From positions 11,016-75,015 of the forward strand of contig MGGS01000008.1 in assembly GCA_001792535.1 (NCBI GenBank): DNA of 64,000 nucleotides, read 5' to 3'. Source of the stretch: Candidatus Woesebacteria bacterium RIFCSPHIGHO2_02_FULL_42_20 (GTDB taxonomy: Bacteria; Patescibacteriota; Microgenomatia; UBA8517). Under the pieces are notes generated by a model that was given only the letters and a program-made list of their open reading frames with translations, was not told where the DNA came from and did not search any database. Both the position numbers and the translations under genes were made by a program. Shown piece by piece: positions 4,439 through 58,506 of this stretch (position 1 is its first letter; each line of letters starts with the position of its first letter).

Positions 4439-5860
4439 TCAGACAGGGCGGTTTAACTCCACAGGTTTTTGAATTTGCACATATGTGCCGTTTTTTGATT
4501 TCAAATCGGTTAGTTGCAGATAGAATCTATCGTCTTTATCCTTTATGAGTTGCACAAATAAATGGTCCCGGCTTACCAAGTTGTTCAAAGAAAGAACTTC
4601 ATTTGACCACCAATTTCGTCCGATGAAAATTCCTTTGTCTTTGGGTGATAACTCTATGAAACCGGGTTTATCGTCTCCCTTTTGAAATACCCTCTCTTGA
4701 ATGAGCATGAATTCTATATAATCAGGGTGATCTTTTTTTAAGTCTGGGTGTTTTTTTAAATTAACTACCCTCAAAACCGTTTTCCAAGGCTTATCTGGGT
4801 TTCCCAGAATTATTTTAATTTCACCATCCTCCAGATCGTATCTTTTGGGTTTGTGGGGCTCGAGGCGTTCTGTCTCAATGGTAGGATTGTCTTCTGCCTT
4901 ATTTTCGGCTACGGCTGCTGGTGGTTCTTCTTCAGGTTTATCTTCGGGAGCATCTACTCTGGCAATAATGACCGAAATGTTGTCAGCACCGCCGTTTTTG
5001 TTGGCTAGATCAACTAGACTATCGCAGGTTTCTTGAGGATCTTCTCCGAGGTTAACCGCCTGCATTGCATCTAAAATGTCTTGTGTATCCGTTATTTCCC
5101 AGAGCCCGTCTGAACAGAGCAAAAAGACATCGCCTTTTGTAGTTTCGATTTGATGAGTTTCGGCGTCCGACTGCATGCCATATGTTCCTCCCAATGCATT
5201 TGCAAGTACGTTTTTACCATCTTCGTCTTTAATATCGTCAATATGGCCGCTTTCTCCAAAGACTTTGTGGGCTACAAATGTTTGATCGAAAGTGACGAAT
5301 AGTTTACCGGCTCGAAGTAAATATGTTCGGCTATCACCAACATTACCGAGTATCGCCTCGCCAGTTTTGCGGTTGATTAGCACACCGGAGTAGGTAGTGC
5401 CCATATCACCAGTCATTTGCTTGTCGGCGTAGCGGATTGCTTGTTGCATGCTCTTTTGGCCAAGTTGGCCTGATTCTGCAACTAGTTGAGCTAGTTTTTC
5501 AGGAACACTTTTGATGGCTAACTCGCTTGCGATTTCACCTGCGAGGTACCCTCCCATTCCGTCTGCGGCTTGGAGTAGAAGCCAATCTTCGATTGTTTTT
5601 GTGTCAACGTTGTCCTCATTGTGGTCGCGGACTTGTCCAATATTTGTTCTTTGCCCGACTGCAAGACTGATTCTTTTGGCTTCAACTTCGTTGGCTACTG
5701 CCGGGCCGACTGAGGGAAGTGCATCAAAAAATGCCACAGCGACCCCTTCCGCTTGTTTCACGGATTCAGGTTCTTTGTTGCTTCCGAATAACTTATTTAA
5801 TCTTTCTCTCATGGTTTTTAAACTATTATTTCCTCTTTGGAATTTTGCAAATACGACCAA
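4439..5860 (-). CDS. PP2C-family Ser/Thr phosphatase fused to a C-terminal FHA domain
   Basis: PP2C motifs ADGMGGYLAGEIAS, FLLCSDGLW and GGADNISVIIARV. After a Pro/Glu-rich linker comes an FHA-like module (GIFIGRN...SRDHLFVQL...GTYV). Confidence 0.75.
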   Translation of the reverse strand: MVVFAKFQRGNNSLKTMRERLNKLFGSNKEPESVKQAEGVAVAFFDALPSVGPAVANEVEAKRISLAVGQRTNIGQVRDHNEDNVDTKTIEDWLLLQAADGMGGYLAGEIASELAIKSVPEKLAQLVAESGQLGQKSMQQAIRYADKQMTGDMGTTYSGVLINRKTGEAILGNVGDSRTYLLRAGKLFVTFDQTFVAHKVFGESGHIDDIKDEDGKNVLANALGGTYGMQSDAETHQIETTKGDVFLLCSDGLWEITDTQDILDAMQAVNLGEDPQETCDSLVDLANKNGGADNISVIIARVDAPEDKPEEEPPAAVAENKAEDNPTIETERLEPHKPKRYDLEDGEIKIILGNPDKPWKTVLRVVNLKKHPDLKKDHPDYIEFMLIQERVFQKGDDKPGFIELSPKDKGIFIGRNWWSNEVLSLNNLVSRDHLFVQLIKDKDDRFYLQLTDLKSKNGTYVQIQKPVELNRPV

Positions 5861-6515: not shown

Positions 6516-6881
6516 CTTTTCTCCTTTGAAAGGAAAATAAGGACTCCTGTCCCAGTTAGATAGCGCTTGTTGCGCATCAAACGGGACAAAAGCCCGCGAG
6601 TCGGTGGCGACTTCCTCTCCCTTCATTCAAGGGGTCCCTTCAGCTTTGTCCGCTGAGGCCCAAGGCAGAGATGCCGGGGAATAGACAAAATAATCAATTC
6701 TCAATTATCAATGAATTTATCTACTTTCCAGCATCTCCGCTTTTTGAACAAAGGTAAGAATATTTAATAAGGATTTTTTCAGGAATGTCAAAGTGCTAAA
6801 TAATAAATCTTTTTTACTGTGGCTGTCACAGTTAAAGATGTTATTAGCCCATAGTCTATAGATTAGCCAAACAGTTCGCTT

Positions 6882-6916: not shown

Positions 6917-7019
6917 TATTGAGTAGTAAACGGACTAACTTTGTGGAATAAATAATGAATACACAATAATTTGGAGGTTAATAATCAATTATCAATAACC
7001 AATTTTCAATAAATGATCA

Positions 7020-7232
7020 ATGAAAAAAGTATCAAATAGTAAATCTAATCTAGAAGAAAGAACTGCAAAATTTGGTGAAAACATAATAGATTTGGTTAGA
7101 AAAATAAAATTAACGTCAGTCAATAAAAGGATAATTGAGCAAGTAGTTGGCTCTGGCGGTTCAACAGGCGCTAATTATTGTGAAGCCACCGAAGCCGAGA
7201 GTCGGCAGGATTTTATCCATAAAATTGTTTAA
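7020..7232 (+). pseudogene. Truncated four-helix-bundle protein (TIGR02436-like, 23S IVS protein family); C-terminal ~45 aa missing
   Basis: Carries the family pattern ...ERT.KF...II.L..KI and SG.STGANY.EA..A.S..DFI.KI, then stops abruptly. The next gene starts 10 bp later. Confidence 0.45.
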
Positions 7233-8892: not shown

Positions 8893-10569
8893 ATGTTAAA
8901 CAAAGATCAAATAATCAAAAGCCTATCGAAAGCAACGGGTTTGCCGGAAAGCGAAATAAAACTCTATTTTCCCGAGCGGGAAGAGCATGGGGATTACGCG
9001 ACGAACGTCGCGTTCCACCAGTCACCAATCACCAGTCACCAATCACCTTATCAAATTGCCGAAAAGATTATAGAAAAGCTTAAGACGGACAAAGATCTAA
9101 ACAAGATCGTAGATAAAATCGAAGTCGCTGGCCCCGGATTTATCAATTTCTTTCTGTCAAAAGAGGCGTTACTTGATACACTAGTTGATATTAACAATGA
9201 GAAAGATGCATTCGGGAAGTCAGATTTATTAAAGGGAAAAAGAATAATGTTTGAGTTTGGCCAGCCCAACACCCACAAGTTACCACATATAGGCCACTTA
9301 TTTTCTTACATTTATGGCGCCAGTATGACTAACATTTTGGAATTAGCGGGCTCTAAACTTCGCCGAGTGAATTACCAAGGTGATATTGGGCCTCATGTGG
9401 CAAAGTGTCTTTGGGCCTTTGAGAGAGGGAATCCGTCGGTACCAAGTACTTTGGAGGGAAAAGTAAATCTTTTACAAAAGATGTATCAGAAAGGAGCGCA
9501 GGCGTTTGAAAAGGACGAGAAAACAAAAACAGAGATTTTGGAGATTAACAAGAAAATCTATCTGAAAAAAGAACCCTGGTTTAGTCTTTGGCAAAAAACC
9601 AGAGGGTGGAATCTTGAATATTACAAAAAATTTGAGAAGAGATTGGGGGTTTCTTACGACAGGTATTATTTTGAAAGTGAGGTAGAGGAGATGGGGAAGA
9701 AGATAGTTGAGAATAATATTGGCGAGGTTTTTGAAAAAAGCGAAGGAGCACTAATTTTCAAAGGCAGCAAAGTGGGTCTGCATGATAGAGTTTTTGTTAC
9801 AAAATACGGCACCCCGACTTATGAAGCCAAGGACATGTATCTGCAAAAGTTGAAGATGGAGGAGTGGCCTTACGATCTTTTAATAATTACCACGGCGCAC
9901 GAGCAAAATGAATATTTCAAGGTGGTTTTTAAGGCTTTGGGAACATTGGACACTGCCTATAAAGGAAAACTTATGCATATTGGTTTTGGGATGGTGAACC
10001 TTAAAAGCGGCAAAATGAGCTCAAGAACCGGTGAGATTGTAAGTGCAGTAGATTTAGTTGATAAAGTTGTCGAAAAAGTGAGCCAGATAAATAAAGACAA
10101 GAAAATTGCAGAAGCAGTTGGCTTGGGAGCAGTCAAATACTCGTTTTTAAAAAATAATCCTTTACAGGATACAAAATTTGACATTGAAGAAAGCATTGCT
10201 CAGGAGGGAAATAGTGGACCCTACTTGCAATATACACACGCTCGTACACAGAGCGTTTTGCGCAAAGCAAAACCCACCAACCACCAACCACCAATCACCA
10301 ATCACGCGCTTTCAGCGCCTGAACTATCGGTTTTGCGTTTTCTTCCCCGTTTTCCCCAAATCGTTGAAAATGCAGCTAAAACCTACTCACCTAACTTGAT
10401 CTGCAATTACCTCTTTGATCTGGCCCAAAGATATAACAATTTTTATAATTCGAATCGGATACTAGGGGAGAAAAGTGAAAACTTCAGATTGGCATTGACT
10501 TTGGCAGTCGGCCAAATTCTCAAAACCAGCCTTAATCTTTTGGGAATTAAAGCACCTGAAAGGATGTAG
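8893..10569 (+). CDS. argS: Arginyl-tRNA synthetase
   Basis: HIGH motif (PNTHKLPHIGHL), KMSKS-like MSSRTGE, and a C-terminal anticodon-binding DALR-type region. It contains two low-complexity His/Gln/Pro/Thr inserts encoded by heptanucleotide repeats. Confidence 0.9.
   Translation: MLNKDQIIKSLSKATGLPESEIKLYFPEREEHGDYATNVAFHQSPITSHQSPYQIAEKIIEKLKTDKDLNKIVDKIEVAGPGFINFFLSKEALLDTLVDINNEKDAFGKSDLLKGKRIMFEFGQPNTHKLPHIGHLFSYIYGASMTNILELAGSKLRRVNYQGDIGPHVAKCLWAFERGNPSVPSTLEGKVNLLQKMYQKGAQAFEKDEKTKTEILEINKKIYLKKEPWFSLWQKTRGWNLEYYKKFEKRLGVSYDRYYFESEVEEMGKKIVENNIGEVFEKSEGALIFKGSKVGLHDRVFVTKYGTPTYEAKDMYLQKLKMEEWPYDLLIITTAHEQNEYFKVVFKALGTLDTAYKGKLMHIGFGMVNLKSGKMSSRTGEIVSAVDLVDKVVEKVSQINKDKKIAEAVGLGAVKYSFLKNNPLQDTKFDIEESIAQEGNSGPYLQYTHARTQSVLRKAKPTNHQPPITNHALSAPELSVLRFLPRFPQIVENAAKTYSPNLICNYLFDLAQRYNNFYNSNRILGEKSENFRLALTLAVGQILKTSLNLLGIKAPERM
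9016..9047 (+). repeat. Heptanucleotide tandem repeat (TCACCAR)x4 inside argS, encoding HQSPITSHQSPY
   Basis: caccagtcaccaatcaccagtcaccaatcacc, read directly from the sequence. Confidence 0.8.
10274..10305 (+). repeat. Second heptanucleotide tandem repeat (YCACCAA)x4 inside argS, encoding PTNHQPPITNH
   Basis: cccaccaaccaccaaccaccaatcaccaatcac, read directly from the sequence. Confidence 0.8.
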
Positions 10570-10589
10570 TAAGATTCAGCAGACTGTTT

Positions 10590-11060
10590 TAGATGTTGAA
10601 GTACCCGCCGGTTTGGGTTTTGACCATATACCAAAAACAATAAAAGCTCGGTCATCCGGTCCGCTGGTCGAGCCCTCTGGTGGAGGTGGCGCCACTCTTC
10701 TGACTTCTTTCAGGAGGTTTCTGCCATAATTGTCAACTTGAGGTTTGGATTGCCCCCCGGTTTTTGCCGAGAAAGGGAGAGATAGGACACTTTTTGCGGC
10801 TTCTCTTCCTAGGATTCCCAAGCAGCCTGCGCCCAAGGGGCATCTTTGAGCAAGGTCTCCCGTTGCCCTGGCAAGTCCTGCCAATCCGCCTCCATTTTCG
10901 TCAAATACATTTACAAAACGTCCACTGCAGGAAGCGCCGCCTGTTTTTTGCTTCCATGGGCAAGTGTAGGATACAGTCTGGGCAGCCCTTTCCCTATAGG
11001 CATTGACAAGAGCATGAACAGCCTAATTAAATATTTCAGCCATGATGTATTATAACAGCA
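10590..11060. ncRNA. Candidate structured non-coding RNA (GC-rich block between convergent argS and ATPase genes); identity unresolved (RNase P RNA-like?)
   Basis: About 470 bp at >55% GC in an AT-rich genome. Only short, non-protein-like ORFs occur on either strand, and there are many local complementary segments. The minus strand contains GGCGCAGGCTGCTTGGG, which resembles the conserved RNase P GGGUAGGCUGCUUG element, but no P4 pairing could be verified. Confidence 0.25.
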
Positions 11061-11102
11061 TTCAAGAGAACCCCGCTCTCAGTACGGGGAGAATGTCATT
11101 AA

Positions 11103-13604
11103 TTAATCCGTGCTGCTGAACTTGTAATAAATCCGTTTGGCAAACTCCGTGGTTAAAAAATAGACCAGAACCAAGATAAAGACGCTTAGCATAAAGCCCG
11201 TTTCGGGTCTAGCGAACTTGAAGGCCTGCTGGCCAAAAGCAGTAAACGGCAGGGCTATAGTAGCGATCCCTGCGACGAAAGTGAGAAGAATCAGTGTTGC
11301 CGACGGACGGCTTGCTTTCCAAAAGGAAAACTTGGTGCGGATTGAGTAAATGAAGACAAGTTCAGTCAGAATTGAGCCGACAAACCACATTGTCTGGAGA
11401 GTCTCCGGGCTGTACTGCGAAAAGATGGCGAAGAAAATAAAATCAAAGACCGAACTTACCAGGCCTAAAATAGTTGCAATTAGGGCAATGCCTTTGAGGT
11501 CGTATTTATTGGGCACAGTAAGTTCACGAGTATCCACGCTGTCTGTTGCAATGGCAATCATCGGAAAGTCCGAGAGTAAATTGACCAGAAGGATTTGGAC
11601 CGGAAGCATGGGGAGGTAGTTGACTAGAAGAGAGGCAACCGCTACCGCATAGAAATTGCCGAAATTTGAGGCTAAGGTGGCCTGGATGTATTTAGTCGTG
11701 TTGGCAAAGATTTTTCTGCCTTCCTCTATTCCTTCGATTATGACTCGCAAGCTTTTGTGAAGCAAAACGATGTCTGCAGTGTCTTTGGCAATGTCGCTTG
11801 CACCTGACACAATAATGGCTACATTTGCAGCTTTTAATGCCGGTGCGTCGTTAATGCCTTCGCCCAGGAAACCCACCTCGTGGTTTTCTTTTAAAGCCTC
11901 GACGATCCTGTGCTTTTGCGCAGGCGTGACTCTGGCGAATATTGTGTAGCGACCCACCGCCTCATTAAATTGATTAGTGCTTAATTCTTCGAGTTTGTTG
12001 CCTGAGGTGACTTGGCTCTGCGACTTGATAAGGCCTATCGCCAAGCCTACTGTACCTGAAACTTCGCTGCTATCCCCGGTCAAGATTTTGATGGTAAGCC
12101 CTAGTTTTTTTGCATTGGCGATTGCAGCCGCGGCAGTAGGCTTGATCGGGTCGGTGAAGGAAATGACTCCGTCGAATTCCATAGAGTTCTCCTGATCCTC
12201 AATGTCGATCTTGGTTCCCGGAAGCTCTTTGTGAGCGATTGCTATAGTTCTTTTTCCTAAGTTACCTTTTGACGAGACCCAATTTTGATACTTGTTGTCA
12301 GTAAGCTTGCAAAGTTTGAAAATAGTGTCAGGTGCGCCTCGAGAAATAAGCAGATATTTTCCTTTGTACCTGACCAGTAGAGTATTTCTTCTTCGCTCAG
12401 GGTCAAAGGGTATTTCTTTTTCCGTTTTCGGGCAGTTTAACCCCCCAAGGACCTTATTTGCTGCCGATATTATTGCCATGTCAAAAGGGTCGCTACCACT
12501 GCCTCCAGGCTGATTTGAGGCCCAGTAGGCGTACTTCAGGCAATCACTCGATGAGGCGGGATGGATTTCATCCAAAGTGAGTCTGTTTTCAGTCAGGGTA
12601 CCGGTTTTATCCGTGCATAAAACTTCAATGCCGCCCAAGTCTTCTACGCTTGAAAGCCTTTTGACCACAACGTGTTTTTTTGCAAGCCTTAAAGCTCCTC
12701 TTGAAAGGGAAAAAGTGGTAACAAGGGGGAGGGCCTCGGGTATGACGCTGACGGCTAAGGCCACGGAAAAGACTGCAAGCTGGAATTTATCGGTGCCGGT
12801 GCCTTTTATGACCAGATTTATAATGTAAAGAATAACCAAAGTTGCTACAATCAACCTGAGGGTGAATGTTGAAAACTTGGCGATGCCTTTTTCGAAGCTT
12901 CCGGTGTGGGTGGTTTGAGTAGTCAGGCGTTCTATTTCGCCGAATGCAGTGTCTTTGGCTGTCGCAATGACAATTCCGGTGGCGTTTCCATGCATCACGC
13001 TGGTTGCGCTAAAGGCGATATTTTTGGCTTTGACAATTTGATCGACTGCGCCGCTTAATTTTTCGGAGGTTTTGGAAACCCTGTCTGATTCTCCTGTTAA
13101 GATTGACTCATCGATAATCAGGTTGTTGCAGGTAATGATCCTCATGTCAGCGGGGATAATGTCTCCGGGCTCGATTGCGACAATGTCGCCCGGGACCAAC
13201 TTTTCGGCCGGTAGAGATATTAGTTTTTTATCGCGGATTACCATTGAGTGGGCTGTGGTATAAGTGGAGAGAATTTTTACCGCCTGGTGCGATCTGTACT
13301 CCTGGGTGAAACCCAAGAAGGTGTTGATGACTACGAAGCCTATAATTATTACGCTGTCTGCCGTCTCACCCAAGAAAAAAGTAAAAATGGAGGCGATTAT
13401 AAGGACGTAGATAAATGGAGAGGTGAGTTGGCGGATCAAAATGTGGTACCAGTGAATTTCTTTTGCTTTGATTTTATTCAAACCATATTTTTTGAGTCGT
13501 GCCCCGGCTTCTTTGTGGGTAAGTCCGTCTGATGATGAGTGAAGATAGGAAAAAAGTTTTGAGTTGTCTTTCGTAGAGGATGATAAAGCGATACTGTCTT
13601 TCAT
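11103..13604 (-). CDS. Cation-transporting P-type ATPase (P2/P3-type; Mg2+/Ca2+-like)
   Basis: CTDKTGTLTEN phosphorylation motif, TGDS hinge, GDGINDAPALKAANVAI, and ten predicted TM segments. It lies adjacent to mgtE. Confidence 0.9.
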   Translation of the reverse strand: MKDSIALSSSTKDNSKLFSYLHSSSDGLTHKEAGARLKKYGLNKIKAKEIHWYHILIRQLTSPFIYVLIIASIFTFFLGETADSVIIIGFVVINTFLGFTQEYRSHQAVKILSTYTTAHSMVIRDKKLISLPAEKLVPGDIVAIEPGDIIPADMRIITCNNLIIDESILTGESDRVSKTSEKLSGAVDQIVKAKNIAFSATSVMHGNATGIVIATAKDTAFGEIERLTTQTTHTGSFEKGIAKFSTFTLRLIVATLVILYIINLVIKGTGTDKFQLAVFSVALAVSVIPEALPLVTTFSLSRGALRLAKKHVVVKRLSSVEDLGGIEVLCTDKTGTLTENRLTLDEIHPASSSDCLKYAYWASNQPGGSGSDPFDMAIISAANKVLGGLNCPKTEKEIPFDPERRRNTLLVRYKGKYLLISRGAPDTIFKLCKLTDNKYQNWVSSKGNLGKRTIAIAHKELPGTKIDIEDQENSMEFDGVISFTDPIKPTAAAAIANAKKLGLTIKILTGDSSEVSGTVGLAIGLIKSQSQVTSGNKLEELSTNQFNEAVGRYTIFARVTPAQKHRIVEALKENHEVGFLGEGINDAPALKAANVAIIVSGASDIAKDTADIVLLHKSLRVIIEGIEEGRKIFANTTKYIQATLASNFGNFYAVAVASLLVNYLPMLPVQILLVNLLSDFPMIAIATDSVDTRELTVPNKYDLKGIALIATILGLVSSVFDFIFFAIFSQYSPETLQTMWFVGSILTELVFIYSIRTKFSFWKASRPSATLILLTFVAGIATIALPFTAFGQQAFKFARPETGFMLSVFILVLVYFLTTEFAKRIYYKFSSTD

Positions 13605-25424: not shown

Positions 25425-26462
25425 GTGAAGAAAGAGGATGATAACATCCAAAATCGTAAGAAAGACCATTTAAGAATTGCGACGAGTGATATTTCGCAAA
25501 CCGGCAATCCGGGGTTTGACAAGTACCGCTTTATTCATAACGCACTGCCCGAAATAGATTTTGACTCTATTGATACTTCGACAACTTTTCTGGGTAAGAA
25601 AGTAAACTATCCGTTTTTTATTTCCTGCATGACAGGCGGAGTTAGCCAAGGTAAGCGTATTAATCGTAACTTGGCCGCTGCGGCTCAGACATGGGGTATT
25701 GCCATGGGAGTCGGGAGTCAGCGCGCGGCTATCGAGCACCCTGAATTGGCTGGCCTTTTTACGGCTCGCGAAGTAGCGCCGGACATCCCCTTGATTGCCA
25801 ATGTCGGCTTGGTCCAGCTTAATTATGGTTTCGGAGCAGCCGAATATCAAAAAATAATCGAAATGATAGACGCGGATGCTCTGAGCGTTCATATTAACCC
25901 CATTCAGGAAGTTATCCAGCCCGAAGGCGACCGTAACTGGGCCAATTTGCTGCCGAAATTAAAACAAGTTTTACCCAAATTGTCTAAGCCTGTTATCGCT
26001 AAAGAAGTGGGCTTTGGGCTCTCTAAAAGTGTTATAGAAAGATTATATAAAGTAGGGGTTAGATACTTTGATACTGCAGGCTGGGGAGGGACGAATTGGT
26101 CAGTAGTCGAAGGTATGCGCGGCAAGGCAGATCGCGAATTAGGCAAGCTTTTTGGCGAATGGGGAATACCAACCAGTGAGTCAATAAAGTCAGTGAAATC
26201 AGTAAGTCAATTATTCAGTGACTTAGTGACAATACTTGGTAGCGGAGGAGTAAGAACCGGAATTGATGTAGCAAAGTGTATTGCTTTGGGGTGTGATATG
26301 GTTGGTATCGCTCAACCCTTTGCCAAAGCAGCTTTAATATCGGCTGAGGAAGTGGAGAAGTTAATTGAAAGATTGGCTCTGGAACTAAAAATTGCAATGT
26401 TTGGGGTGGGGGCAAAAACAATTGGCGAGCTTCAAAAGATAAAGTTAGTGGCAGTTGATTAG
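25425..26462 (+). CDS. fni: Isopentenyl-diphosphate delta-isomerase, type 2 (FMN-dependent)
   Basis: RKKDHLRIA, CMTGG, the FMN-binding GSGGVRTG and the ALGCDMVGIAQPF pattern. The frame appears to begin with GTG. It contains a TCAGTGA-type repeat stretch. Confidence 0.8.
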   Translation: MKKEDDNIQNRKKDHLRIATSDISQTGNPGFDKYRFIHNALPEIDFDSIDTSTTFLGKKVNYPFFISCMTGGVSQGKRINRNLAAAAQTWGIAMGVGSQRAAIEHPELAGLFTAREVAPDIPLIANVGLVQLNYGFGAAEYQKIIEMIDADALSVHINPIQEVIQPEGDRNWANLLPKLKQVLPKLSKPVIAKEVGFGLSKSVIERLYKVGVRYFDTAGWGGTNWSVVEGMRGKADRELGKLFGEWGIPTSESIKSVKSVSQLFSDLVTILGSGGVRTGIDVAKCIALGCDMVGIAQPFAKAALISAEEVEKLIERLALELKIAMFGVGAKTIGELQKIKLVAVD

Positions 26463-57246: not shown

Positions 57247-58506
57247 ATGCCTGAAAGCCTATATAAAAATGCCGTTTCTCAACTGAAAGAAGTAGCTAAG
57301 TTACTAAAGCTTTCCAAAAAAGAGGTTGACTACCTTTCAAAGCCCGAGCGTTTCCACAAAAATACTCTTCGGGTGAAAATGGATAACGGAGCAATTAGAC
57401 AATTTAAAGCTTTCAGGTCGCAACACAACAGCGCCCGTGGGCCATATAAAGGTGGGATAAGATTTCACCCTCAAGTTTCCCAAGACGAAGTAATGGCCTT
57501 GTCGATGTGGATGAGCTGGAAGACGGCCGTTGTCGGTATTCCCTATGGTGGTGGAAAAGGCGGAGTTGTCGTTGACCCCGGGGAATTGTCAGTTGGGGAG
57601 CTCGAAAGGTTATCCCGAACATACGCCGGCTGGGCGGGAAAGTTTATCGGTCCGTGGACTGACGTGCCGGCGCCGGATGTAAATACAGACAGTCAGGTTA
57701 TGGCATGGATGGTAGACGAGATAGAAAAAACCCAAACTTCCAAAACTCAAAAACTCCAAGTGAACCCGCGGGCAACATTTACCGGTAAGCCTCTGGAAAT
57801 AGGCGGGTCACAGGGTAGGGAAGAAGCAACCGGCTTGGGCGGCTTTTATACATTGGAAAAGTTGACTCATCACTCTTCACTCGTCACTCGTAACTCTACT
57901 ATCGCTGTTCAGGGGATTGGCAATGTCGGTTACTGGTTTGCGAAGTTTGTAAGTGACGGGGGCTATAAAGTCGTGGCAATCTCCGACTCCAAGGGCGGAG
58001 TTTACAATCCGAAGGGAATAGATTTAGAGAAAGTTATGGAACACAAAAAAAAGACAGGGTCAGTTTTGGGTTTGTATCATGAACTGACTAACCAGGAACT
58101 AATAACTCTAAACGTAGATGTCTTGGTTCCTGCCGCACTAGAAAATGTTATCACTGGTGAAAACGCCAAGGATGTCAAAGCAAAAGTAATTATCGAGTTG
58201 GCAAATGGTCCTGTCGCACCCAAAGCAGATGAAATACTTTTGAGAAGAAAAATTTTGTCGGTTCCGGATGTATTGGCAAATGCAGGCGGGGTAACAGTTT
58301 CTTACTTTGAATGGGTGCAAAATCTATCGGGCTATTACTGGGAAAAGCAGGAAGTCTTTGAAAAATTAAAAATTATTATGGATAGGGCATTTGCCGAAAT
58401 GTGGCATGTTCATTTAGATAAGCCACGATTGTCCCTTCGTATGTGCGCTTACATTAATGCAGTCTCCAAAGTTGTTTCTGTAATGCGGGTTTTGGGGAGA
58501 ATTTAG
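57247..58506 (+). CDS. gdhA: Glutamate dehydrogenase (Glu/Leu/Phe/Val dehydrogenase family)
   Basis: GPYKGGIRFHPQVSQDEV...WKTAVVGIPYGGGKGGV, and the Rossmann segment QGIGNVGYW. Confidence 0.9.
   Translation: MPESLYKNAVSQLKEVAKLLKLSKKEVDYLSKPERFHKNTLRVKMDNGAIRQFKAFRSQHNSARGPYKGGIRFHPQVSQDEVMALSMWMSWKTAVVGIPYGGGKGGVVVDPGELSVGELERLSRTYAGWAGKFIGPWTDVPAPDVNTDSQVMAWMVDEIEKTQTSKTQKLQVNPRATFTGKPLEIGGSQGREEATGLGGFYTLEKLTHHSSLVTRNSTIAVQGIGNVGYWFAKFVSDGGYKVVAISDSKGGVYNPKGIDLEKVMEHKKKTGSVLGLYHELTNQELITLNVDVLVPAALENVITGENAKDVKAKVIIELANGPVAPKADEILLRRKILSVPDVLANAGGVTVSYFEWVQNLSGYYWEKQEVFEKLKIIMDRAFAEMWHVHLDKPRLSLRMCAYINAVSKVVSVMRVLGRI

What the first reader, a model, noticed from the sequence alone, without database searches (positions are those of the whole stretch)
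9016..10305. In-frame heptanucleotide (TCACYNR)n micro-repeats inserted at two separate loops of argS, with related repeats in fni and gdh
argS carries (TCACCAR)x4 at 9016-9047 encoding HQSPITSHQSPY. A second (YCACCAA)x4 block at 10274-10305 encodes PTNHQPPITNH, placed in the linker before the anticodon-binding domain. Both are in frame despite the 7-nt period.

Similar heptamer runs occur in fni (26175-26230; TCAGTGA/TCAGTAA units, encoding SESIKSVKSVSQLFSD) and in gdh (57867-57896; TCACTCK units, encoding HHSSLVTRNS).

Recurrent 7-nt satellites inside essential enzymes suggest a lineage-specific slippage-prone element, or a selected low-complexity loop insertion. They are also potential phase-variation sites if the copy number changes.
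Basis: seen in the sequence. Interest (0 to 1): 0.55.

Follow-up and report, generated by a model that had tools for sequence, protein, structure and literature searches.

The report
Heptamer repeats written into enzyme loops
Two essential enzymes of this groundwater CPR bacterium (Woesebacteria) carry short 7-base tandem repeats that are translated as surface loops, and such repeats are common across its relatives, where they change unit sequence in step without changing length; they are not on/off switches.

Summary
Three 32-nt arrays (4.6 copies of a 7-nt unit) lie at 9016-9047, 10274-10305 and 57865-57896. In the window, period 7 gives 4 arrays against about 0.1 expected, and other periods give essentially none. 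The fni site is not a tandem heptamer array.

The arrays are not clean insertions. They occupy ordinary-length coil loops or domain junctions and align nearly gap-free with solved homologues.

The pattern is lineage-wide. In about 1 Mb from 80 related CPR argS loci there are 99 period-7 arrays, against 2-14 at each other period. About 70% lie in long ORFs, and most are about 4 units long. E. coli has none in 100 kb.

The closest relative (76% ArgRS identity, 56% of four-fold sites changed) has arrays at both argS sites. They have the same length and register but a different unit in every copy, which is concerted evolution.

No copy-number polymorphism appears in the protein clusters, and the frame is open in 82 of 85 loci, so phase variation is not supported.

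Best reading: these are heptanucleotide simple-sequence repeats, a known prokaryotic class. Misaligned replication or conversion makes and homogenises them, and frame, stop-codon and structural tolerance filter them. A 34-nt array identical between two highly diverged genomes remains unexplained.

The parts
8893..10569 (+). argS, arginine--tRNA ligase, 558 aa. It hosts two heptamer arrays.
   Evidence: ORF. Homologues carry PF03485, PF00750 and PF05746. PDB ArgRS matches. AlphaFold model with pLDDT 91.3.
9016..9047 (+). Heptamer array 1: CACCAGT/CACCAAT alternating, 4 units plus CACC (4.6 copies). It encodes HQSPITSHQSP, in a coil between helices H39-43 and H52-64 of the N-terminal domain.
   Evidence: Coil at residues 44-51, block pLDDT 74. 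The relative L004 has CACCGAT/CATCGAT at the same place with the same length.
10274..10305 (+). Heptamer array 2: CCACCAA x3, TCACCAA, TCAC (4.6 copies, no G). It encodes PTNHQPPITNH, in the linker between the catalytic and anticodon-binding domains.
   Evidence: Coil at residues 459-474 between H442-458 and H475-497, block pLDDT 63. L004 has CACTGAC/CACCGAC at the same place with the same length.
57247..58506 (+). gdh, glutamate dehydrogenase, 419 aa. It hosts one heptamer array and one decayed A-rich repeat.
   Evidence: ORF. PDB GDH matches at E = 1e-124. Homologues carry PF02812 and PF00208.
57865..57896 (+). Heptamer array 3: ACTCATC ACTCTTC ACTCGTC ACTCGTA ACTC (4.6 copies). It encodes LTHHSSLVTRN at the junction just before the GxGxxG strand of the NAD(P) domain. 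It is a same-length overwrite, not an insertion.
   Evidence: Nearly gap-free alignment to 1gtm and 1euz. Relatives have LVxKLKLKKxEVT of equal length.
57732..57756 (+). Decayed A-rich period-8/7 tract CCAAACTTCCAAAACTCAAAAACTC in gdh. It encodes about TQTSKTQKLQ and coincides with a 5-aa insertion relative to solved GDHs.
   Evidence: Period-8 score 8. 5-residue gap in the alignment to 1gtm and 1euz.
6694..6712 (+). Weak intergenic heptamer tract TCAATTC TCAATTA TCAAT.
6980..7012 (+). Intergenic heptamer array AATAATC AATTATC AATAACC AATTTTC. It ends about 8 nt upstream of the ATG at 7020 of a called 70-aa gene.
   Evidence: TRF periods 7 and 14. Sequence. Gene call 8128..8340 in L005, which equals window 7020..7232.
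26173..26229 (+). fni (IDI-2) segment with five irregularly spaced NCAGTRA words. It is NOT a tandem heptamer array and is listed only because the finding named it.
   Evidence: No TRF row. Spacings 17/9/16/8 read. Mostly conserved residues with a 4-5 aa insertion relative to 2zru and 1p0k.

Best explanation
The argS and gdh repeats are short heptanucleotide simple-sequence repeats: four full 7-nt units plus a 4-nt partial unit, 32 nt in all. Such repeats are abundant in this group of CPR bacteria (Woesebacteria/Microgenomates).

Inferred mechanism. Misaligned DNA synthesis or repair between microhomologies spaced 7 nt apart creates periodicity. The process could be slippage, short-patch template switching or intra-array conversion. 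It keeps the copies alike, so a change in one unit spreads to all of them (concerted evolution).

Shown. The arrays survive inside genes only under three conditions:
- The unit, which is read in all three frames, gives no in-frame stop.
- The net length keeps the reading frame.
- The 10-11 encoded residues fall in a coil between secondary-structure elements or at a domain junction.

The arrays are translated as ordinary loop residues. I infer no sequence-specific function, and they do not act as switches.
For: Period specificity:
- Window: 4 period-7 arrays against 0.1 expected, essentially none at other periods.
- About 1 Mb of 80 related loci: 99 arrays at period 7 against 2, 2, 8, 14, 5, 2, 3, 11, 0 and 7 at periods 4-6, 8-13 and 15. 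The 60 at period 14 are mostly doubled period 7.
- E. coli: 0 arrays in 100 kb.
- Heptamers are already known as the commonest 5-11 nt SSR class, attributed to polymerase slippage (PMC4679880 and PMC4692102).

Tolerant sites:
- Both argS arrays are coil with locally low pLDDT in a model of 91.3 overall.
- Both lie in hypervariable loops of a 31-protein alignment.
- The same loops in other orthologues carry unrelated arrays or decayed ones.

Filters:
- The frame is open through argS in 82 of 85 loci.
- Among high-purity arrays, copy numbers congruent to 1 mod 3 dominate in ORFs (19 of 25) but not outside them (2 of 9), Fisher p = 0.013.
- The 62- and 69-nt arrays have units with stops on both strands and are intergenic (stop content read from the units by inspection). 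Half of the intergenic arrays (12 of 23) have stops on both strands.
- Density is 5.9 per 100 kb in non-argS ORFs and 16.2 per 100 kb in intergenic DNA.

Concerted evolution:
- Window and L004 have the same sites, length and register, but the unit differs in all 8 full copies, while four-fold sites differ by 56%.

No dispersed word: the units are not over-represented as single copies in the window.

No switching: no length variants in the clusters, and only a point variant within one unit.
Against: - Arrays replace loop sequence without changing its length in gdh and at orthologous sites such as L011, L038 and L032. Simple expansion does not predict this. It needs conversion-type events or compensating deletions.
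- The mode of about 4 units is also seen in intergenic arrays here and in the intergenic heptamer repeats of Xanthomonas and Nostoc (PMC4692102). The reading-frame filter therefore cannot be the whole reason for the length.
- L033 and L023 share an identical array of about 34 nt although their four-fold sites are saturated at 67%. The chance of sharing a unit by composition is about 0.3%. This suggests nucleotide-level constraint, re-expansion from a conserved seed, or lateral exchange.
- The two argS arrays share a genome-specific unit (CACCAA in the window, CACYGA in L004). Units are also more alike within a locus than between loci, 2.28 against 2.64-2.72, with none of 2000 permutations as low. 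Plain local slippage does not predict this coupling.
- Coding depletion is only about 2.7-fold, which is mild for three stacked filters.
- No step of the mechanism was observed directly.
Confidence: 0.58

Rival explanations
1. Template-directed or mobile 'nano-element' origin. The arrays, and the small hairpin inserts seen at the same loops, would be written by a dedicated enzyme or template. This would resemble what has been proposed for cyanobacterial heptamer repeats and very small dispersed repeats, or the in-frame palindromic elements of Rickettsia. A genome-encoded template would explain why arrays in one genome share a unit and change together.
For: - Both argS arrays share a genome-specific unit and differ from L004's in the same way.
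- Units are more similar within a locus than between loci, with none of 2000 permutations reaching the observed value.
- The same argS linker carries in-frame hairpin or palindromic inserts in many orthologues, and some arrays come paired with their reverse complement: L053/L054 in argS and L046 in an intergenic region.
- Array length is stereotyped at about 32 nt in intergenic DNA as well.
- An identical array occurs in the distant genomes L033 and L023.
- A similar unit, AACTCGT, occurs in the M16 peptidase of L032 and in the window's gdh.
Against: - One genome carries several unrelated units: TCACCAA, TCACTCG and TCAATNN in the window, and six different units in L042.
- The window's units are not enriched as single copies, so there is no dispersed element or target word.
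- Sharing of units between genomes is close to what composition predicts: a rough count from the list gives about 0.75% of pairs, against a comparable strand-blind expectation derived.
- Many arrays show no clean insertion boundaries, because the lengths equal those of array-free orthologues.
- No candidate enzyme was looked for or found.
Confidence: 0.17
2. Selected function at the nucleic-acid or protein level. The arrays might be binding sites for a single-strand-binding protein (one Csp/S1-type domain per heptamer), translational pause signals placed at domain junctions, or flexible hydrophilic linkers selected for their length.
For: - Periodicity is kept at 84-96% in two lineages whose four-fold sites differ by 56%.
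- The array is identical in L033 and L023 although their neutral sites are saturated.
- The arrays sit at domain junctions in ArgRS and GDH.
- Length is conserved at about 32 nt.
- An intergenic array ends about 8 nt upstream of a start codon. This matches the position of the TAACTGA repeats in Beggiatoaceae, for which Csp, S1 or Csr binding was suggested (PMC4679880).
Against: - Units at the same site are unrelated in different genomes: AAATTAC, AGATCTT and AAATGCT, or GAATTCA and GACTACA. No common sequence could be recognised.
- Many orthologues have no array at these loops.
- Domain junctions and coils are also simply the most mutation-tolerant places.
- Array 2 has no G and cannot form a stable structure (read from the sequence).
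- The encoded peptides are only about 1.5 periods long.
Confidence: 0.13
3. Phase-variable contingency loci. Gain or loss of copies would switch argS and gdh off and on, or vary the protein.
For: Tandem repeats whose unit is not a multiple of three are the classic substrate for frameshift switching (general knowledge; PMC4679880).
Against: - The genes are essential or housekeeping.
- Copy number is identical in the window and L004, and in L004 and L007, L008 and L060, and L053 and L054, which come from different samples.
- No length variants occur among cluster members, and the window's ArgRS is unchanged on at least 27 contigs.
- The frame is open in 82 of 85 loci.
Confidence: 0.03
4. Chance low-complexity sequence, conserved ancestral sequence, or an assembly artefact.
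For: The arrays are short (32 nt) and their composition is biased.
Against: - Shuffles give about 0.1 arrays per window against 4 observed.
- Other periods are essentially empty.
- The same arrays recur in independent assemblies and samples.
- The encoded residues are not conserved among orthologues.
Confidence: 0.02

Closest known systems
Heptanucleotide long simple-sequence repeats of prokaryotes (Mrazek, Guo & Shah 2007, as summarised in PMC4679880 and PMC4692102)
   Same: Both are tandem 7-nt units longer than chance allows. In both, period 7 is favoured over every other period from 5 to 11. Polymerase slippage is the proposed cause.
   Different: [quoted passage not shown] Here about 70% of arrays lie in long ORFs, including essential housekeeping enzymes, and are read in all three frames. 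The genomes here are small and low in G+C, whereas the genomes rich in 5-11 nt SSRs were mostly large ones.
GGGAATC and GGGGA(C/T)T heptamer repeats of Xanthomonas and Nostoc (Rehm et al. 2015, PMC4692102)
   Same: Both are genome-wide heptamer arrays with a clear preference for about four units. In both, the sequence varies between related genomes at conserved positions.
   Different: Those repeats have one G-rich unit per genome. [quoted passage not shown] The repeats here have many A/C/T-rich units per genome and no G4 potential (array 2 has no G), and most are intragenic. The shared four-unit preference suggests it does not depend on G4 formation.
Cyanobacterial STRR heptamers (Calothrix/Nostoc; cited in PMC4692102) and TAACTGA repeats of Beggiatoaceae (MacGregor 2015, PMC4679880)
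   Same: Both involve heptamer direct repeats of 2-6 copies scattered through a genome. Some are translated in the stop-free orientation. Some lie just upstream of start codons, like window 6980-7012.
   Different: Those have one or a few fixed units per genome, are mainly intergenic, and TAACTGA has stops in all three frames. The units here are diverse, stop-free on the sense strand, and embedded in conserved enzymes.
Tandem repeats of Borg elements that create disordered protein regions (PMC9879509)
   Same: In both, tandem DNA repeats arise de novo within ORFs, evolve fast, and encode disordered or low-confidence segments.
   Different: The Borg repeats inside ORFs are amino-acid repeats, which implies unit lengths divisible by three (my inference from the abstract). 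The 7-nt unit here gives a 7-residue period read in three frames, and the arrays are much shorter.
In-frame small selfish elements: Rickettsia palindromic elements and cyanobacterial small dispersed repeats (from my own recall; the Elhai 2008 paper could not be opened)
   Same: In both, short non-coding-type DNA is tolerated in frame inside conserved protein genes, at surface positions.
   Different: Those elements have a defined consensus, often hairpin-forming, dispersed at many loci. The window's arrays have no shared consensus beyond TCAC, no self-complementarity, and no length gain.

Membership tests
Heptanucleotide simple-sequence repeat (prokaryotic LSSR class) | Head-to-tail tandem copies of a 7-nt unit | tested here: met
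   TRF gives 4.6 copies at 88-96% matches at three sites. Sequences were read directly.
Heptanucleotide simple-sequence repeat (prokaryotic LSSR class) | Longer and more frequent than expected by chance in that genome | tested here: met
   4 arrays against 0.1 in shuffles of the window. 9.6 per 100 kb in related loci against 0 in 100 kb of E. coli.
Heptanucleotide simple-sequence repeat (prokaryotic LSSR class) | Period 7 favoured over neighbouring periods | tested here: met
   99 arrays at period 7 against 2-14 at each of periods 4-6, 8-13 and 15 in about 1 Mb.
Heptanucleotide simple-sequence repeat (prokaryotic LSSR class) | Copy-number instability between close strains, the signature of slippage | tested here: not met
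   No length variants in four >=90% protein clusters. Identical arrays in near-identical contigs from different samples. Indels of +/-21 nt appear only between distant orthologues. Read-level data could not be examined with these tools.
Cyanobacterial STRR / single-unit genome-wide heptamer families (STRR1-3, TAACTGA, GGGAATC) | One or a few fixed units repeated at many loci of a genome | tested here: not met
   The window has TCACCAA, TCACTCG and TCAATNN, and L042 has six different units. Units are not enriched as single copies. Units are somewhat more alike within a locus than between loci.
Cyanobacterial STRR / single-unit genome-wide heptamer families (STRR1-3, TAACTGA, GGGAATC) | Predominantly intergenic location | tested here: not met
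   67 of 95 arrays lie in ORFs of at least 200 aa. Density is 5.9 per 100 kb in non-argS ORFs and 16.2 per 100 kb in intergenic DNA.
Phase-variation contingency locus | Copy number varies among closely related cells or strains, switching the frame | tested here: not met
   Copy number is constant and the frame is always open.
Phase-variation contingency locus | Located in a dispensable, usually surface or host-interaction, gene or its promoter | tested here: not met
   The hosts are ArgRS and GDH.
In-frame mobile micro-elements (RPE- or SDR-like) | A defined consensus sequence present at many unrelated loci | tested here: not met
   The three window arrays share only TCAC, and no single-copy excess is seen. 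Unit sharing between genomes is close to the composition expectation.
In-frame mobile micro-elements (RPE- or SDR-like) | Presence/absence polymorphism with a length gain relative to empty sites | tested here: inconclusive
   gdh and argS site 1 show no length gain. Some orthologue pairs differ by exactly 21 nt. No closely related filled/empty pair was available.
In-frame mobile micro-elements (RPE- or SDR-like) | Hairpin-forming (palindromic) core | tested here: not met
   The window's arrays are direct repeats, and array 2 contains no G. Hairpin inserts do occur at the same linker in other orthologues, but not in this window.
Borg-type amino-acid tandem repeats | Unit length divisible by three inside ORFs | tested here: not met
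   The unit is 7 nt.

The most novel reading that the evidence does not exclude
CPR bacteria of this group may have an active micro-conversion process, possibly enzyme- or template-directed. It would rewrite stretches of about 32 nt in permissive loops of essential genes, and in intergenic DNA, into four-and-a-half-copy heptamer arrays without changing their length. It would keep the arrays homogeneous over times at which synonymous sites saturate, and would coordinate the unit between arrays of one genome. The arrays would then be products of a dedicated generator of loop diversity, or nucleic-acid signals such as one-protein-per-heptamer ssRNA/ssDNA binding sites or pause sites at domain junctions, rather than passive slippage debris.
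Probability: 0.22. Interest if true: 0.75.

Novelty: new variant of a known kind. Interest (0 to 1): 0.55.

Why it matters
Repeats whose unit is not a multiple of three are expected to be purged from the middle of essential genes, yet here they are routine. The data suggest that much of the loop-level length and sequence variation of CPR housekeeping proteins is written by a 7-nt repeat process. That bears on how these reduced genomes generate protein novelty, and on alignment and phylogeny of CPR marker proteins, because such loops are not positionally homologous.

It also bears on the open question of why 7 nt and about four units are favoured in bacterial simple repeats. The four-unit preference seen here in G-poor units argues against the G-quadruplex explanation offered for Xanthomonas and Nostoc.

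The arrays are also a practical warning for gene callers and for claims of phase variation made from sequence alone.

Tried and rejected
- Translational bypass or recoding. Rejected: a single tblastn HSP spans argS in 82 of 85 loci, and all arrays there are in frame and stop-free.
- A dispersed word or binding motif. The window's units occur at the expected frequency as single copies.
- A 14-nt (ABAB) super-period as a growth step. ABAB (4) is no commoner than AABB (4) or ABBA (2). The apparent AABA excess (10) is probably a trimming artefact of my detector.
- Preferred units shared across genomes. A rough count gives about 0.75% of array pairs sharing a unit, close to the composition expectation. 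Only the L033/L023 case stands out.
- fni as a family member. Rejected.
- Elhai 2008, on very small mobile repeats in cyanobacteria, could not be opened. That comparison rests on my memory.
- Three literature searches found no description of heptamer arrays in CPR/Patescibacteria. The library is incomplete, so this is absence of evidence only.
- Side leads that gave nothing: no Rfam, tRNA or tmRNA match for the GC-rich gap at 10570-11100, and no Pfam match for the 190-aa insert in L011 ArgRS.
Full report
**What is there.**
The window comes from a Candidatus Woesebacteria (CPR/Patescibacteria) genome. Its ArgRS is identical to proteins deposited for Woesebacteria MAGs from Rifle and is seen on at least 27 contigs. 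argS is the ORF 8893..10569 (+).
- At 9016-9047 it reads CACCAGT CACCAAT CACCAGT CACCAAT CACC and encodes HQSPITSHQSP.
- At 10274-10305 it reads CCACCAA x3, TCACCAA, TCAC and encodes PTNHQPPITNH.
- Both arrays are in frame. TRF reports 4.6 copies for each.
- The gdh ORF (57247..58506) carries ACTCATC ACTCTTC ACTCGTC ACTCGTA ACTC at 57865-57896.

With a simple autocorrelation scorer at score >=10, the window holds 4 arrays of period 7 against 0.1 in shuffles. Other periods from 4 to 15 give essentially none: one at period 12, and 3 at period 14 that are doubled period-7 arrays.

The fni site is different. TRF finds nothing there. The five NCAGTRA words are spaced 17, 9, 16 and 8 nt apart. Most of the segment is conserved IDI-2 sequence with a 4-5 residue insertion. 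It is not part of the family.

**Are they insertions?**
No, or only marginally.

| Site | Compared with | Length difference |
|---|---|---|
| gdh array segment | P. furiosus GDH 1gtm | +1 residue, directly upstream of the GxGxxG strand |
| gdh array segment | 47 close relatives | none; it replaces the semi-conserved LVxKLKLKKxEVT |
| argS site 1 | 6ao8 | +1 residue |
| argS site 2 | 6ao8 and yeast 1bs2 | +2 to +3 residues |

In a 31-protein alignment both argS sites are hypervariable in length and sequence. An AlphaFold model (mean pLDDT 91.3) puts site 1 in a coil at residues 44-51 between two helices (block pLDDT 74). It puts site 2 in a coil at 459-474 between the last helix of the catalytic domain and the first helix of the anticodon-binding domain (block pLDDT 63). 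The arrays therefore overwrite ordinary loops and domain junctions.

**The pattern is lineage-wide.**
I fetched 80 argS loci of relatives (40-77% identity) from metagenomes, about 1 Mb with flanks.
- Arrays scoring >=12, by period: 2, 2 and 8 for periods 4-6; 99 for period 7; 14, 5, 2, 3, 11 and 0 for periods 8-13; 60 for period 14 (mostly doubled period 7); and 7 for period 15.
- 30 of 46 loci of at least 10 kb have at least one array. Density is 9.6 per 100 kb, against 0 at any period in 100 kb of E. coli K-12.
- Units are diverse and A-rich on the sense strand (A 45%, G 10%).
- 67 of 95 distinct arrays lie in ORFs of at least 200 aa, and such ORFs cover 79% of the DNA.
- Because every locus was chosen for argS, I separated it out. 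argS has 20.1 arrays per 100 kb, other ORFs 5.9, and intergenic DNA 16.2. Coding DNA is depleted only about 2.7-fold.
- argS is a hotspot with at least four recurrently hit coils: sites 1 and 2, a loop at window residues ~180-186, and one before the 'IEKIEV' strand.

**Length.**
Arrays are stereotyped, with a mode of 31-33 nt, which is 4 units plus a 3-5-nt partial unit.
- High-purity arrays in ORFs cluster at 29-35 nt. Outside ORFs, lengths of 24-25, 62 and 69 nt also occur.
- Copy numbers congruent to 1 mod 3 account for 19 of 25 in ORFs and 2 of 9 outside, Fisher p = 0.013. This fits a reading-frame filter on changes of three units (21 nt).
- Indels of exactly 21 nt are seen between some orthologues, and several GDH relatives carry about 7-8 extra residues at the array site.
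- The frame filter is not the whole story. Four units is also the mode among intergenic arrays here. It was also reported for the mostly intergenic heptamer repeats of Xanthomonas and Nostoc, where it was ascribed to G-quadruplex formation (PMC4692102). The units here are G-poor, so the preference looks intrinsic to heptamer repeats.

**Evolution.**
The closest relative with DNA is L004 (ArgRS 76% identical). It has arrays at both argS sites with the same length, boundaries and register but different units.

| argS site | Window | L004 |
|---|---|---|
| Site 1 | CACCAGT/CACCAAT | CACCGAT/CATCGAT |
| Site 2 | CCACCAA/TCACCAA | CACTGAC/CACCGAC |

- Position 5 of the unit is A in all eight full copies in the window and G in all eight in L004.
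- Four-fold degenerate sites of the rest of the gene differ by 56%. The arrays differ by only 25-28% and keep 84-96% unit-to-unit identity in both lineages.
- This is concerted evolution. Periodicity is actively maintained or repeatedly re-made, not passively inherited.
- Other genes show the same thing. In an M16 peptidase, L011, L038 and L032 have AAATTAC, AGATCTT and AAATGCT arrays in a segment of identical length. These pairs have 70-81% protein identity and 48-53% change at four-fold sites.
- Units are more alike within a locus than between loci: mean distance 2.28 against 2.72, or 2.64 with G+C-matched permutation. None of 2000 permutations reached the observed value.
- One case resists a neutral account. 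L033 and L023 (ArgRS 54% identical, four-fold sites 67% different) share an identical AAAACTC array of about 34 nt in the same loop. Composition alone gives two independent arrays the same unit about 0.3% of the time.

**Not switches, not bypassed.**
- Near-identical contigs from different samples carry identical arrays: L004 and L007, L008 and L060, L053 and L054.
- All full-length members of the four >=90% ArgRS clusters have the same length within each cluster, apart from a 604/582 aa split in the P0007 cluster that I did not examine. The only variation found in an array is a point change within one unit (HRSSIIDH versus HRSSITDH).
- A single tblastn HSP spans argS in 82 of 85 loci.
- The hosts are housekeeping enzymes.

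**Mechanism.**
Shown:
- Period-7 specificity.
- Location in tolerant coils.
- An open reading frame through the arrays.
- Copy-number classes that differ between coding and intergenic DNA.
- Concerted change of units with constant length.

Inferred:
- The arrays arise and are homogenised by misaligned synthesis or repair between 7-nt-spaced microhomologies. The partial terminal unit of 3-5 nt is what such slippage would leave.
- Same-length overwriting points to short-patch template switching or intra-array conversion, or to contraction and re-expansion in steps of three units, rather than simple insertion.

The bias towards 7 nt is already known for prokaryotic simple repeats and has been attributed to the polymerase footprint (Mrazek 2007, as summarised in PMC4679880 and PMC4692102). 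I did not test any enzyme.

**Rivals.**
- A template-directed or mobile origin is suggested by several observations. The unit is coupled between the two argS arrays. Similar units occur in unrelated genes: AACTCGT in the L032 peptidase and ACTCGTC in the window's gdh. The same linker in other orthologues holds in-frame hairpin inserts and arrays paired with their reverse complement.
- Against that origin, one genome carries several unrelated units, the units are not enriched as single copies, and many arrays add no length.
- A selected nucleic-acid or protein function is suggested by maintained periodicity, by the L033/L023 identity, and by placement at domain junctions. It is undercut by unrelated units at the same site in different genomes.

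**Comparison and novelty.**
The arrays meet the definition of heptanucleotide simple-sequence repeats. They differ from every described case I could find (STRR, TAACTGA, GGGAATC and GGGGAYT) in four ways:
- They have many units per genome rather than one.
- They are mostly intragenic.
- They sit in frame in the middle of essential enzymes.
- They turn over their unit at fixed sites with fixed length.

Three searches found no description of this in CPR bacteria. I rate it a new variant of a known kind, of moderate interest.

Noticed in passing
L032 11309-11467; L038 2584-2736; L061 11342-11491; L019 11408-11653; L029 5315-5482; L044 1494-1652; L009 5088-5222; L053 4644-4703 / L054 11395-11454: In many orthologues the argS linker (site 2) carries short in-frame hairpin or palindromic inserts instead of heptamer arrays. 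Examples are GGTTCGGAACCCG..CGGGTTCCGAACC and GGTGAGACC..GGTCTCACC. In L053/L054 a heptamer array is followed by a partly complementary one (AAATCCGAAA ... ATTTCGG x4.6). L030 and L033 have period-8 arrays followed by partly complementary period-8 arrays.
   Followed up: partly
L033 1632-1664 and L023 9459-9492: An identical AAAACTC array of about 34 nt occupies the same ArgRS loop in two genomes. Their ArgRS is only 54% identical and their four-fold sites are saturated (67% different). The flanks differ.
   Followed up: partly
L011 10115-10693: ArgRS of this Hainich groundwater contig has an in-frame insertion of about 190 aa at exactly site 1, with no Pfam match. Its site 2 holds a longer heptamer array of about 8.7 copies (11901-11958). 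Several database homologues of 738-768 aa may carry the same insert.
   Followed up: partly
window 10570-11100: A gap of about 530 nt lies between argS and the P-type ATPase gene. By eye it looks more G+C-rich than its surroundings, and it has only odd-looking ORFs (10576..10884 on the minus strand, 10764..11006 on the plus strand). There is no Rfam match even at E <= 1, and no tRNA or tmRNA.
   Followed up: partly
window 6980-7012 (and 6694-6712): Intergenic AATNATC/TCAATNN heptamer arrays. The larger one ends about 8 nt upstream of the ATG (7020) of a called 70-aa gene, where a ribosome-binding site would sit. The TAACTGA repeats of Beggiatoaceae occupy the same position.
   Followed up: partly
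window 57732-57756: A second, decayed A-rich repeat in gdh (CCAAACTTCCAAAACTCAAAAACTC, encoding about TQTSKTQKLQ) coincides with a 5-residue insertion relative to solved GDH structures.
   Followed up: partly
L046 5577-5677 (also 5035-5141); orthologous intergenic sites in L037, L043 and L058: Intergenic regions with conserved flanks (72-85% identical) hold a heptamer array followed by its reverse-complement array, for example (AAAAGTT)n ... (AACTTTT)n. These would form long hairpins. Different genomes use different units at the same place.
   Followed up: no
L032 13999-14017: An M16-family peptidase of a distant relative carries an AACTCGT array encoding LVTRNSSLV. It closely resembles the unit and peptide (SSLVTRNS) of the window's gdh array, in an unrelated gene.
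   Followed up: partly
L006 12111-12302 (also L001 2127-2318): About 400 nt downstream of an intact argS, in another frame, lies a fragment resembling the ArgRS C-terminus (residues 506-558, 37.5% identity). It is probably a pseudogene remnant.
   Followed up: no
L021 336-437 and 1112-1207: A composite tract of about 100 nt made of several heptamer families (AAATGCA/AAATGTA, then AATTTGT/CATTTGT) occurs twice, 776 nt apart.
   Followed up: no
alignment A1; P0025, P0056-P0060, P0066-P0069, P0073, P0077-P0079: Many related CPR ArgRS proteins (for example from Dojkabacteria) are 840-970 aa long and carry an extra PF03483 domain, plus PF01588 in one case, fused to ArgRS.
   Followed up: no
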